Part shown: positions 46,930 to 47,046 of the stretch, in pieces
Position numbering within the stretch: position 1 is the stretch's first letter
Layout: every line of letters begins with the position of its first letter
Source: Croceimicrobium sp.
Lineage (GTDB): Bacteria > Bacteroidota > Bacteroidia > Flavobacteriales > Schleiferiaceae
Assembly: GCA_965656185.1 (NCBI GenBank)
Contig: CBFHJH010000001.1
Location: 291,089 to 355,088 of the forward strand
Direction of reading: 5' to 3'
Length of the DNA stretch: 64,000 nucleotides
Program-made: the position numbers and the translations under genes
Notes under the pieces: model-generated
Told to the model about the DNA's origin: nothing
Seen by the model: the letters and a program-made list of their open reading frames with translations, nothing else
Database searches by the model: none

Positions 46930-47046
46930 GTAAGGGTCTGTGCTGACAAAACGCAAACAAAAGTAAGGTTATTACCTGACATAAACAAAATTTAAGTAAG
47001 GATATAAGTTGACAAAATGTTTCAATATATCAGGTTATAGACTGAC
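46930..47046. promoter_or_regulatory. four 18-bp quasi-palindromic operators at exact 33-bp period, overlapping promoter TTTG(46986-46989)-N20-TACTTTTG(46958-46965) on the minus strand
   Basis: gtaagg-gtctgt-gctgac (46930), gtaagg-ttatta-cctgac (46963), gtaagg-atataa-gttgac (46996), atcagg-ttatag-actgac (47029). Confidence 0.8.

What the first reader, a model, noticed from the sequence alone, without database searches (positions are those of the whole stretch)
46930..47046. Four quasi-palindromic operators at exact 33-bp spacing upstream of mobile mystery A
Copies begin at 46930, 46963, 46996 and 47029 (three helical turns apart, same DNA face). Consensus is GT(A/C)AGG-N6-(C/N)(C/N)TGAC, and copy 2 is nearly the perfect palindrome GTCAGG-N6-CCTGAC. 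They cover the -33 box, the -7 box and the leader, as the four operators of E. coli hipBA do. This gives a concrete candidate binding site for an uncharacterised regulator family and implies cooperative repression. It also argues the true start is ATG 46926.
Basis: partly seen in the sequence, partly recalled or inferred. Interest (0 to 1): 0.75.

Follow-up and report, generated by a model that had tools for sequence, protein, structure and literature searches.

The report
Conserved four-operator array of a toxin–antitoxin module
Four 18-bp mirror-symmetric DNA sites spaced exactly 33 bp apart sit on the promoter of an uncharacterised two-gene Fic toxin/antitoxin-like cassette, and the same 33-bp layout recurs upstream of this gene family in most Bacteroidota relatives sampled and on proteobacterial plasmids, so they are very probably the binding sites through which the cassette's own repressor shuts it off.

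Summary
GTAAGG-N8-TGAC occurs exactly three times in the 64-kb window, at 46930, 46963 and 46996 (0.04 expected). A fourth, two-mismatch copy lies at 47029.

In gene orientation (minus strand) the site is GTCAGG-yTAtAr-CCT(T/G)AC. It lies upstream of the 152-aa HTH gene "mobile mystery protein A" (46926..46468) and its Fic partner B.

In 77 distinct Bacteroidota loci, 68 carry 3-4 such sites. All 181 spacings are 33 bp (158) or 32 bp (23). The proximal site usually ends 3 nt before the ATG.

Site 2 fills the spacer between a TTTG (-33) and a TAnnTTTG (-7) box and supplies the TA of the -7 box. Site 1 lies in the predicted 27-nt leader.

Distant homologues (34-42% identity) on Agrobacterium Ti, Vibrio, Shewanella, Bradyrhizobium, Sphingopyxis and Ensifer plasmids use different half-sites but the same 33-bp register. 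Their HTH recognition helices differ in step with the half-sites.

The best explanation is autorepression by cooperatively bound A dimers, possibly with B. Binding itself was not tested.

E. coli hipBA is a fair analogy (four 5-N8-5 dyads) but is spaced 28/39/28.

In this window B carries an 11-nt frameshifting deletion.

The parts
46930..46947 (-). Operator 1 (proximal). On the gene strand it reads GTCAGCACAGACCCTTAC. It ends 3 nt before the ATG and lies in the predicted 5' leader.
   Evidence: PWM score 15.7 bits. The equivalent site starts at -21 in 53 of the 66 loci that have a proximal (rank-1) site.
46963..46980 (-). Operator 2. On the gene strand it reads GTCAGGTAATAACCTTAC. It fills the -33/-7 spacer, and its last 3 nt (TAC) begin the -7 box.
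   Evidence: PWM score 27.1 bits. The right half is TTAC in 69 of 75 loci at this rank, against about half at rank 3.
46996..47013 (-). Operator 3. On the gene strand it reads GTCAACTTATATCCTTAC. It ends 6 nt upstream of the -33 TTTG.
   Evidence: PWM score 20.3 bits. Related strains have the consensus G at 47009.
47029..47046 (-). Operator 4 (distal). On the gene strand it reads GTCAGTCTATAACCTGAT. Its outer edge is where cassette homology ends.
   Evidence: 2 mismatches. PWM score 22.9 bits. blastn homology to other loci begins at about 47044-47059. Contigs of related strains diverge just beyond 47046.
46958..46965 (-). Predicted sigma-A -7 box TACTTTTG (consensus TAnnTTTG).
   Evidence: Sequence. 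An exact TAnnTTTG lies at this position in 47 of 75 loci. The consensus and its -12..-5 position are taken from PMC9723704.
46986..46989 (-). Predicted -33 element TTTG, 20 nt upstream of the -7 box.
   Evidence: Sequence. A TTTG with a 20-nt spacer is present in 39 loci. These columns are conserved.
46953..46953 (-). Predicted transcription start, giving a 27-nt leader. This is inferred, not mapped.
   Evidence: Derived from the -7 box position. The furthest-upstream metatranscriptome contig of a relative ends at 46945, and none covers 46946-47137.
46468..46926 (-). Gene A: mobile mystery protein A, 152 aa. It has an XRE-type HTH at about residues 31-80 and a C-terminal helical pair carrying the invariant TMKLEDQ motif.
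   Evidence: TIGR02612 at 147.8 bits against a cut-off of 122.6. Pfam HTH_3. Homologues are 152 aa. AF2 model with pLDDT 75. Foldseek top hits are DdrO, HipB and HigA.
45892..46478 (-). Gene B: mobile mystery protein B, a Fic-domain protein with the motif HCFPNGNGRHSR. It is disrupted here. The ATG is at 46478. An 11-nt deletion between 46437 and 46436 shifts the frame, giving a stop after 20 codons at 46416. The 166-aa ORF 46392..45892 is the out-of-frame remainder.
   Evidence: TIGR02613 at 232 bits, matched only from model position 23. Alignment with four relatives. The family B is 198 aa and overlaps the end of A. The deletion is present in the source run's contig; the 11 nt are present in contigs of runs X13 and X26, and the X2, X3 and X34 contigs that break at this junction have loose ends matching them.

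Best explanation
The four 18-bp dyads are the operators of an autoregulated two-gene module. A is an XRE-family helix-turn-helix protein with a Fic-antitoxin-like C-terminal motif. B is a Fic-domain enzyme. A dimers recognise GTCAG-N8-CTGAC-type dyads.

In Bacteroidota, site 2 occupies the spacer of a sigma-A promoter (TTTG-N20-TAnnTTTG) and overlaps its -7 box. Site 3 abuts the -33 element. Site 1 sits at about +6 to +23 of the transcript. Site 4 extends the array upstream. Occupancy would therefore block RNA polymerase binding and early elongation.

The register of 33 bp (rarely 32), about three helical turns, is kept across phyla even where the half-site sequence has changed. This implies that neighbouring dimers touch each other, or are bridged by B, and so bind cooperatively as one fixed-geometry complex.

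Shown here: the sites, their register, their position on the promoter motifs, their conservation against variable spacers, and their co-variation with the recognition helix of A. Inferred: that A is the binder, that binding is cooperative, that it represses, and that B takes part.
For: (1) Statistics in the window: 3 exact matches against 0.04 expected, all at 33-bp steps.

(2) Conservation in Bacteroidota. 68 of 77 distinct loci (65-93% A identity) have 3-4 sites. Spacing is 33 bp 158 times and 32 bp 23 times, with no other value. There are 525 PWM hits in the roughly 165 nt upstream, against 25 in 878 kb of flanks.

(3) A motif-free 5-mer lag scan gives a best lag of 33 or 32 in 67 of 77 loci. 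Control regions show no preferred lag.

(4) Footprint-like conservation. Pairwise identity is 0.90 in half-site cores, 0.81 over whole sites and 0.45 in spacers.

(5) Promoter overlap. TAnnTTTG begins at site-2 position 16 in 47 of 75 loci, and TTTG lies 20 nt upstream in 39. The right half of site 2 is fixed as TTAC in 69 of 75, while distal sites are often the perfect palindrome CCTGAC.

(6) Dyad-symmetric co-variation at positions 5/14 and 6/13. Lineages with GTCAGT..ACTTAC or GTCAAG..CTTTAC operators have altered recognition helices: QSLTDIE, or S56 changed to G/N.

(7) Plasmid homologues at 34-42% identity show 3-4 dyads in 33-nt register with other half-sites: ATCAG-N8-CTGAT on pTiC58 at -143/-110/-77/-44; TGTAT-N10-ATACA in Vibrio and Shewanella at -124/-91/-58/-25; ATAAG-N6-CTTAT in Bradyrhizobium at -118/-85/-52/-19; and CAT..ATG types in Sphingopyxis, Rhizobium and Ensifer. 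Each group has a different recognition helix, and the two groups that share the TCAG core share Q-(S/T)-V.

(8) The operator array is the 5' edge of the conserved, horizontally spread cassette.

(9) A has an XRE HTH fold, with HipB and HigA antitoxins among the nearest solved folds.
Against: There is no binding, footprint or expression data. The transcription start is predicted, and the only RNA evidence is a single low-depth contig of a relative that ends at 46945. The co-variation between recognition helix and half-site is confounded with phylogeny, since it rests on only a handful of independent specificity classes. The PWM was built from the same loci it was used to scan, although spacing was not part of the model and the lag scan is independent of it. 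Three or four of the 12 plasmid loci (Rickettsia, B. septentrionale and partly R. leguminosarum and Rhizobium T1470) show the register less clearly. In this window B is broken, and sites 1, 3 and 4 score below the family norm, so the module here may be decaying.
Confidence: 0.8

Rival explanations
1. The sites are bound mainly by the A-B complex rather than by A alone. B would bridge A dimers on neighbouring operators and be held inactive on the DNA. The 33-bp register would then reflect the size of a B bridge, and the toxin:antitoxin ratio would tune repression, as in conditional cooperativity. This refines the main explanation rather than excluding it.
For: The register is invariant across phyla while the half-sites change, which suggests a protein-defined distance. 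A carries a family-wide (S/T)MxLE(D/A/N)Q motif resembling the Fic inhibitory-helix motif [S/T]xxxE[G/N]. The A and B genes overlap in nearly all loci. For HipBA, a review states that HipA is a co-repressor that contacts operator DNA.
Against: No complex model or interaction data could be obtained, because the structure tool takes single chains only. In this window B is frameshifted, yet A and the array are retained.
Confidence: 0.35
2. The array is primarily a recombination or mobility site of the cassette, such as an end recognised in trans, and its overlap with the promoter is secondary.
For: Cassette homology begins exactly at the outer edge of site 4. Many loci have direct repeats flanking the cassette. 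In L046 a second partial operator array lies downstream of B within such a repeat.
Against: There is no recombinase in the cassette. No matching array is found at the 3' end in 79 of 80 loci. The flanking repeats are copies of local target genes, not of the operators, and they end at variable distances from site 4. The fixed distance to the ATG and the fusion with the -7 box point to transcription.
Confidence: 0.05
3. The sites belong to a host regulator, or are inert descendants of a tandemly duplicated promoter unit kept by recent common descent rather than by selection.
For: The T-rich stretch after each site gives the 33-bp units some extra similarity. The cassette spreads horizontally, so part of the similarity is by descent.
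Against: The spacers have diverged to 0.45 identity while the half-sites stay at 0.90. The array travels with the cassette into different phyla and genomic contexts. Proteobacterial relatives have different dyads but the same register, and their own HTH changes with the dyads.
Confidence: 0.05

Closest known systems
E. coli hipBA promoter: four HipB operators TATCC-N8-GGATA
   Same: Both have an XRE-type HTH antitoxin encoded first in a two-gene operon. Both have four 18-bp dyads of 5-N8-5 geometry upstream of the antitoxin gene, with the proximal site about 20 nt from the start codon (22 nt in hipB, 3-21 nt here). Cooperative binding with the toxin as co-repressor is reported for hipBA (PMC3920265). 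HipB structures are among the best Foldseek matches to the A model.
   Different: The spacing I measured in K-12 is 28/39/28, two pairs of sites, not 33/33/33. The toxin is a HipA kinase, not a Fic protein. Similarity between A and HipB is limited to the generic HTH (hhalign probability 33%). A has an extra N-terminal helix and a C-terminal two-helix domain.
Class I Fic toxin-antitoxin modules (VbhTA, FicTA)
   Same: A Fic-domain protein is encoded immediately after, and overlapping, a small partner gene. The partner carries a conserved (S/T)xxxE motif of the kind that provides the inhibitory glutamate.
   Different: The paper read describes the FicA/VbhA class of antitoxins only as small inhibitory proteins (PMC5033356); that they lack a DNA-binding domain is my own recollection, not taken from it. 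A fuses the motif to an HTH. In the window the residue after E is D (A or N elsewhere in the family) rather than G/N. The FIC motif of B has N where adenylylating Fic proteins have D/E (HPFPNGNGRxxR). Sequence similarity of B to solved Fic proteins is weak (E about 1e-5 to FICD and NmFic).
Phd/Doc of phage P1 (recalled from memory)
   Same: A Fic-fold toxin is paired with a DNA-binding antitoxin that autoregulates. The toxin bridges antitoxin dimers on neighbouring sites.
   Different: Phd is not an HTH protein, only two sites are involved, and Doc is a kinase with an HxFx(D/N)(A/G)NKR motif. Not tested here.
Restriction-modification controller (C) proteins and phage 434/lambda repressors
   Same: XRE HTH dimers bind adjacent dyads cooperatively on their own promoter. 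These proteins appear among the Foldseek matches.
   Different: They use two or three sites with other spacings. They have no partner enzyme of the Fic type and no four-fold 33-bp register.

Membership tests
TIGR02612 mobile mystery protein A | Full-length match above the curated NCBIfam cut-off | tested here: met
   147.8 bits against a cut-off of 122.6, covering residues 4-152 of 152.
TIGR02613 mobile mystery protein B | Full-length match above the cut-off, and an intact gene | tested here: inconclusive
   232 bits against a cut-off of 124.4, but only from model position 23. The gene carries an 11-nt frameshifting deletion relative to all relatives examined.
Type II toxin-antitoxin module | Two small adjacent, overlapping genes, the first encoding a DNA-binding protein | tested here: met
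   In more than 60 loci the ATG of B lies 10 nt before the end of A. A has Pfam HTH_3.
Type II toxin-antitoxin module | The toxin inhibits growth, and the antitoxin neutralises it by direct binding | not testable with these tools
   Indirect evidence only: a Fic domain in B, a conserved (S/T)xxxE motif in A, and matches of B to the PADLOC candidate defence family PDC-S04 and to SoFic.
Type II toxin-antitoxin module | Transcriptional autoregulation through operators overlapping the promoter | tested here: inconclusive
   Conserved dyads overlap the predicted -7 box and the leader. No binding or expression data exist.
Class I Fic (FicTA/VbhTA) | Canonical FIC motif HxFx[D/E]GNGRxxR in the toxin | tested here: not met
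   HCFPNGNGRHSR in the window and HPFPNGNGRxxR on the plasmids. N replaces D/E in every family member examined in which the motif was found; it was not found in the Sphingopyxis B. Motif definition from PMC5033356.
Class I Fic (FicTA/VbhTA) | Inhibitory-helix motif [S/T]xxxE[G/N] supplied by the partner protein | tested here: inconclusive
   Window A has T118-M-K-L-E122-D. T/S and E are invariant in the 18 sequences aligned, but the next residue is D, A or N; only the N variants fit the published motif exactly.
HipBA | HipB-family antitoxin with a HipA kinase toxin | tested here: not met
   B is a Fic-domain protein. Similarity of A to HipB is limited to the HTH, with hhalign probability 33%.
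HipBA-like operator layout | Four 5-N8-5 dyads upstream of the antitoxin gene | tested here: met
   Window sites at 46930, 46963, 46996 and 47029. E. coli sites at 565, 593, 632 and 660 of L093. The spacing differs: 33/33/33 against 28/39/28.
Bacteroidota sigma-A promoter | -7 box TAnnTTTG with a TTTG (-33) about 19-21 nt upstream | tested here: met
   TACTTTTG at 46965..46958 and TTTG at 46989..46986, with a 20-nt spacer. The -7 consensus is from PMC9723704. The spacer range is recalled from memory.

The most novel reading that the evidence does not exclude
The invariant four-site, 33-bp array is the scaffold of a fixed-geometry nucleoprotein complex in which the Fic enzyme B is stored inactive on the cassette's own promoter DNA, bridging neighbouring A dimers. 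DNA binding would then be part of toxin neutralisation, and the module would sense its own copy or integrity state. Such an architecture would be a family-defining trait kept from Bacteroidota to Alpha- and Gammaproteobacteria despite complete turnover of the recognised sequence. A second unexcluded novelty is that this recombinase-less cassette spreads by a mechanism that duplicates 30-290 bp of the 3' end of the target gene.
Probability: 0.25. Interest if true: 0.75.

Novelty: new variant of a known kind. Interest (0 to 1): 0.62.

Why it matters
Mobile mystery proteins A and B form a very large gene pair with no experimental work behind it. My two searches returned 2,922 and 2,230 protein clusters, and only four papers in the searched library mention the name. 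The pair is found on Ti plasmids, on Coxiella, Rickettsia and Vibrio plasmids, and in many marine Bacteroidota.

This analysis gives the family a concrete, testable DNA target. It also gives five apparent specificity classes linking recognition-helix sequence to half-site, a promoter model for the Bacteroidota members, and a structural constraint (a 33-bp register) that any model of the A or A-B complex must satisfy. It makes the family an attractive system for studying how repressor specificity evolves while the architecture stays fixed.

Tried and rejected
- Tandem Repeats Finder and the generic repeat finder did not detect the array, because the spacers are unrelated.
- The sigma-70 promoter scan found nothing relevant, as expected for a Bacteroidota promoter.
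- Rfam gave no hit in 45500-48000. Folding of 47047-47308 on either strand is no better than shuffles, with z-scores of 0.03 and 0.59. An RNA element is therefore rejected.
- The first AF2 model of A, from 21 close homologues, was poor (pLDDT 54.6). A 49-sequence alignment that added Alphaproteobacteria raised it to 75. Foldseek then matched only the HTH domain, with weak E-values. The profile search of PDB sequences gave only generic HTH hits.
- Iterons and partition centromeres were considered and rejected: there is no Rep or Par gene, the distance to the ATG is fixed, and the array is fused with the -7 box.
- A long direct repeat flanking the cassette in the window itself was sought and not found (local alignment score 25 against shuffle mean 19.6, maximum 30).
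- TTGTTGCG is not generally enriched around the cassette in other loci (20 hits against about 14 expected).
- Metatranscriptome contigs show that relatives of A and B are transcribed, but they cannot map a start site.

Full report
**What is in the window**

The minus strand carries three genes in a row. They are mnmE (48706..47309), a 152-aa gene (46926..46468) and a Fic-domain ORF (46392..45892).

The 152-aa protein is a full-length member of NCBIfam TIGR02612, "mobile mystery protein A" (147.8 bits, cut-off 122.6). It has a Pfam HTH_3 domain. The downstream ORF matches TIGR02613, "mobile mystery protein B", and Pfam Fic.

The finding lies in the 380-bp gap between mnmE and gene A, directly upstream of A.

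**The observation**

On the + strand, 18-mers beginning at 46930, 46963, 46996 and 47029 read GTAAGG-N6-NNTGAC (the fourth reads ATCAGG-N6-ACTGAC).

- The 10-specified-base pattern GTAAGG-N8-TGAC occurs exactly three times in the 64 kb on both strands, only at these places. Shuffles give 0.04 expected and never reach 3.
- With two mismatches allowed, the fourth copy appears.
- On the gene strand the sites read GTCAG(G)-N6-(C)CT(T/G)AC. Site 2 is one base short of a perfect palindrome.

**Comparative test in Bacteroidota**

A protein search found 2,922 clusters with E no greater than 1e-5, and nearly all listed hits are 152 aa. This supports ATG 46926 as the start.

A scan of one genome per species returned 80 loci, nearly all binned to Bacteroidota, with 65-93% identity to A. 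Printing their upstream regions shows the same motif almost everywhere.

- A matrix built from these sites has the consensus GTCAGGTTATAACCTTAC and 23 bits of information.
- It finds 3 sites in 32 loci and 4 sites in 36 loci, out of 77 distinct loci.
- All 181 neighbour distances are 33 bp (158) or 32 bp (23).
- The proximal site starts at -21 in 53 of the 66 loci that have a proximal (rank-1) site.
- The matrix hits the roughly 165 nt upstream 525 times on both strands, but the remaining 878 kb of flanks only 25 times.
- Because the matrix came from the same loci, I also ran a motif-free scan counting identical 5-mers at each lag from 8 to 60. The best lag is 33 in 60 loci and 32 in 7 loci out of 77. 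Control segments 830-1000 nt upstream show no preferred lag.
- In 19 loci with a strict 33/33/33 register, pairwise identity is 0.90 in the half-site cores, 0.81 over whole sites and 0.45 in the spacers. This is a phylogenetic footprint.

**Relation to the promoter**

The columns after site 3 hold a conserved TTTG. Site 2 is followed by a conserved TTTTG.

With the last TAC of site 2 this makes TACTTTTG, the flavobacterial sigma-A -7 box TAnnTTTG. PMC9723704 places that box at -12 to -5 and reports a median leader of 24 nt.

- An exact TAnnTTTG begins at site-2 position 16 in 47 of 75 loci.
- A TTTG lies 20 nt upstream of it in 39 loci.
- The implied leader is 27 nt in most loci.

In the window these elements are at 46965..46958 (-7) and 46989..46986 (-33), with a predicted start near 46953. 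Site 2 therefore fills the promoter spacer and overlaps the -7 box. Site 3 ends 6 nt before the -33 element. Site 1 lies in the leader and ends 3 nt before the ATG. Site 4 lies further upstream.

This overlap also explains the asymmetry of the dyad. The right half is TTAC in 69 of 75 loci at site 2, where the TA is needed for the -7 box. At site 3 it is the symmetric TGAC in 33 loci and TTAC in 29.

The only RNA evidence is weak. Metatranscriptome contigs of relatives cover A and B. The one reaching furthest upstream stops at 46945, and none covers sites 2-4.

**Who binds**

The sites are dyad-symmetric, and their symmetric positions co-vary. Position 5 paired with the complement of position 14 is A/A 9 times, where about 1.5 would be expected if the positions were independent.

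- Loci whose operators read GTCAGT..ACTTAC encode A proteins with QSLTDIE in place of QSVQEIE in the recognition helix.
- Loci with GTCAAG..CTTTAC have S56 changed to G or N.

The stronger test came from distant relatives. A tblastn search of plasmids found 259 records at 34-42% identity, and twelve were fetched. Laid out in rows of 33 nt, at least nine show three or four dyads in perfect register, with different half-sites:

| Plasmid source | Dyad | Positions |
|---|---|---|
| Agrobacterium pTiC58 and a second Ti plasmid | ATCAG-N8-CTGAT | -143/-110/-77/-44 (pTiC58) |
| Vibrio and Shewanella | TGTAT-N10-ATACA | -124/-91/-58/-25 |
| Bradyrhizobium guangdongense | ATAAG-N6-CTTAT | -118/-85/-52/-19 |
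| Sphingopyxis, Rhizobium T1470 and two Ensifer | CAT..ATG type; the last site includes the start codon | not tabulated |

The lag scan gives 33 as the best lag in six of the twelve and 32 in one more.

The recognition helices fall into matching classes: ITKQSV, IRPQTV, LSRNQV, VSQPRI and APSR(I/V). The two classes that share the TCAG core also share Q-(S/T)-V. This is what is expected if A reads the dyads. The number of independent classes is small, and the correlation is confounded with phylogeny.

The improved AF2 model of A (pLDDT 75) has the following elements:
- an N-terminal helix;
- an XRE HTH domain modelled as four helices (residues 31-80), well predicted (block-mean pLDDT about 82-92);
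- two long C-terminal helices.

Its best PDB fold matches, all weak and confined to the HTH, are DdrO, HipB, HigA2/3, ClgR, R-M controller proteins and 434 Cro.

**The partner and the likely mechanism**

In more than 60 loci B is 198 aa and its ATG overlaps the end of A.

- B carries HxFPNGNGRxxR, with N where adenylylating Fic proteins have D/E (motif from PMC5033356).
- A carries a family-wide (S/T)MxLE(D/A/N)Q motif between its two C-terminal helices. This resembles the [S/T]xxxE[G/N] inhibitory-helix motif that class I Fic antitoxins supply.

I therefore read the module as a Fic toxin-antitoxin-like pair whose antitoxin has acquired an HTH. I read the array as its autoregulatory operator set.

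The register is about three helical turns and survives complete turnover of the recognised sequence. This points to protein-protein contacts between neighbouring dimers, either A to A or through B. Binding, cooperativity, repression and the role of B are all inferences.

**Comparison with hipBA**

A review states that HipB binds four TATCC-N8-GGATA operators cooperatively, with HipA as co-repressor (PMC3920265). I located the four sites in E. coli K-12. They are exact 18-bp dyads starting at 565, 593, 632 and 660 of the locus, so the spacing is 28/39/28. The proximal site lies 22 nt from the hipB start.

The analogy holds for number, dyad geometry, antitoxin fold and position. It does not hold for register or toxin type. 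A is not a HipB homologue beyond the HTH.

**State of the module in this window**

Relative to four relatives the window lacks 11 nt of B between 46437 and 46436. B then reads MGLDLDYIDGQTPIKGRITD-stop, and the 166-aa ORF is the out-of-frame remainder.

- The source run's contig (15 kb, depth 13.8) has the deletion.
- The 11 nt are present in a DNA contig of run X13 and an RNA contig of X26. The X2, X3 and X34 contigs that break at this junction have loose ends matching the missing letters.
- The same related strains have the consensus base at two operator positions where the window departs from it: 47009 in site 3 and 47029 in site 4.

The module here may therefore be decaying while A is kept.

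**Mobility context**

This was noticed and only partly followed.

- Nucleotide homology between loci starts at the outer edge of site 4 and ends at the stop of B.
- Contigs of closely related strains diverge immediately beyond 47046.
- mnmE lies directly upstream in the window and in 8 of 65 loci from several orders.
- In 15 loci the cassette is bracketed by direct repeats of 32-286 bp at 83-100% identity. In several of them (clearest in L048, L034, L046 and L072, where it is the 3' end of mnmE) the repeat duplicates the 3' end of the upstream gene.
- No recombinase is in the cassette, and the repeat-to-cassette distances vary.

**Verdict**

The kind of system, an autoregulated toxin-antitoxin operon with several operators, is known. 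Three things are new: the target of an uncharacterised family, the HTH-plus-inhibitory-motif antitoxin design, and a four-site 33-bp register conserved across phyla.

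Noticed in passing
window 46436/46437 (gene B, 45892-46478, minus strand): An 11-nt deletion frameshifts the Fic gene B after codon 14, so B is a pseudogene here. The deletion is in the source run's 15-kb contig. The 11 nt are present in contigs of runs X13 and X26, and the X2, X3 and X34 contigs that break at this junction have loose ends matching them.
   Followed up: yes
window 47009 and 47029 (operators 3 and 4): Related strains carry the family-consensus base at these two operator positions, where the window departs from it. 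No differences fall in operators 1 or 2 or in the -7 box, and five fall in the spacers between the operators. This is consistent with mild decay of the array alongside the broken toxin gene.
   Followed up: partly
window 47046/47047 and about 45890; loci L001-L080: The conserved cassette is only about 1.15 kb, running from operator 4 to the stop of B. Homology to other loci and to contigs of close strains stops immediately beyond the outer edge of operator 4.
   Followed up: partly
L006, L020, L022, L029, L030, L034, L043, L044, L046, L048, L051, L055, L072, L078, L079: The cassette is bracketed by direct repeats of 32-286 bp at 83-100% identity. In several of these loci (clearest in L048, L034, L046 and L072, where it is the 3' end of mnmE) the repeat duplicates the 3' end of the upstream co-directional gene. 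Distances from repeat to cassette vary, and no recombinase is inside. No such long repeat is present in the window.
   Followed up: partly
window 47309-48706 (mnmE); L003, L008, L027, L038, L065, L072, L074, L078: mnmE lies directly upstream of the cassette, in the same orientation and 178-745 nt away, in the window and in 8 of 65 loci from at least four orders. This suggests a preferred insertion site or spread by homologous recombination at the conserved 3' end of mnmE.
   Followed up: partly
window 45535, 45701, 45743, 47184, 47195, 47525: All six exact copies of TTGTTGCGC in the 64 kb lie within 2 kb around the cassette. Two are upstream and two downstream on the gene strand, and two are inverted. 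L002, L018, L019 and L078 also have copies flanking the cassette, but the motif is not enriched overall. Unexplained.
   Followed up: partly
window about 45701-45751: Relative to L002 the window has a roughly 42-nt insert bounded by the TTTGTTGCGC repeat. It contains the palindromic hairpin GGCACCAGGTGCC (45713-45725), which was flagged as a bidirectional terminator-like site.
   Followed up: no
L046 2341-2391 and 3304: A second, partial operator array (two perfect palindromes 33 bp apart plus a degenerate third) lies downstream of B with no A gene after it. It sits inside a 254-bp direct repeat of the upstream flank.
   Followed up: partly
window 47138-47334: The gap between mnmE and operator 4 contains a stretch 81% identical to L002 1777-1970. 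Metatranscriptome contigs of relatives cover it. There is no Rfam hit and no fold better than shuffles.
   Followed up: partly
gene B family (window 45892-46392; L081-L092): The FIC motif is HxFPNGNGRxxR, with Asn at the position where adenylylating Fic proteins have Asp/Glu, in all Bacteroidota members and nine of the ten plasmid members examined; no motif was found in the Sphingopyxis B. B also matches the PADLOC candidate defence family PDC-S04 at 77.6 bits.
   Followed up: partly
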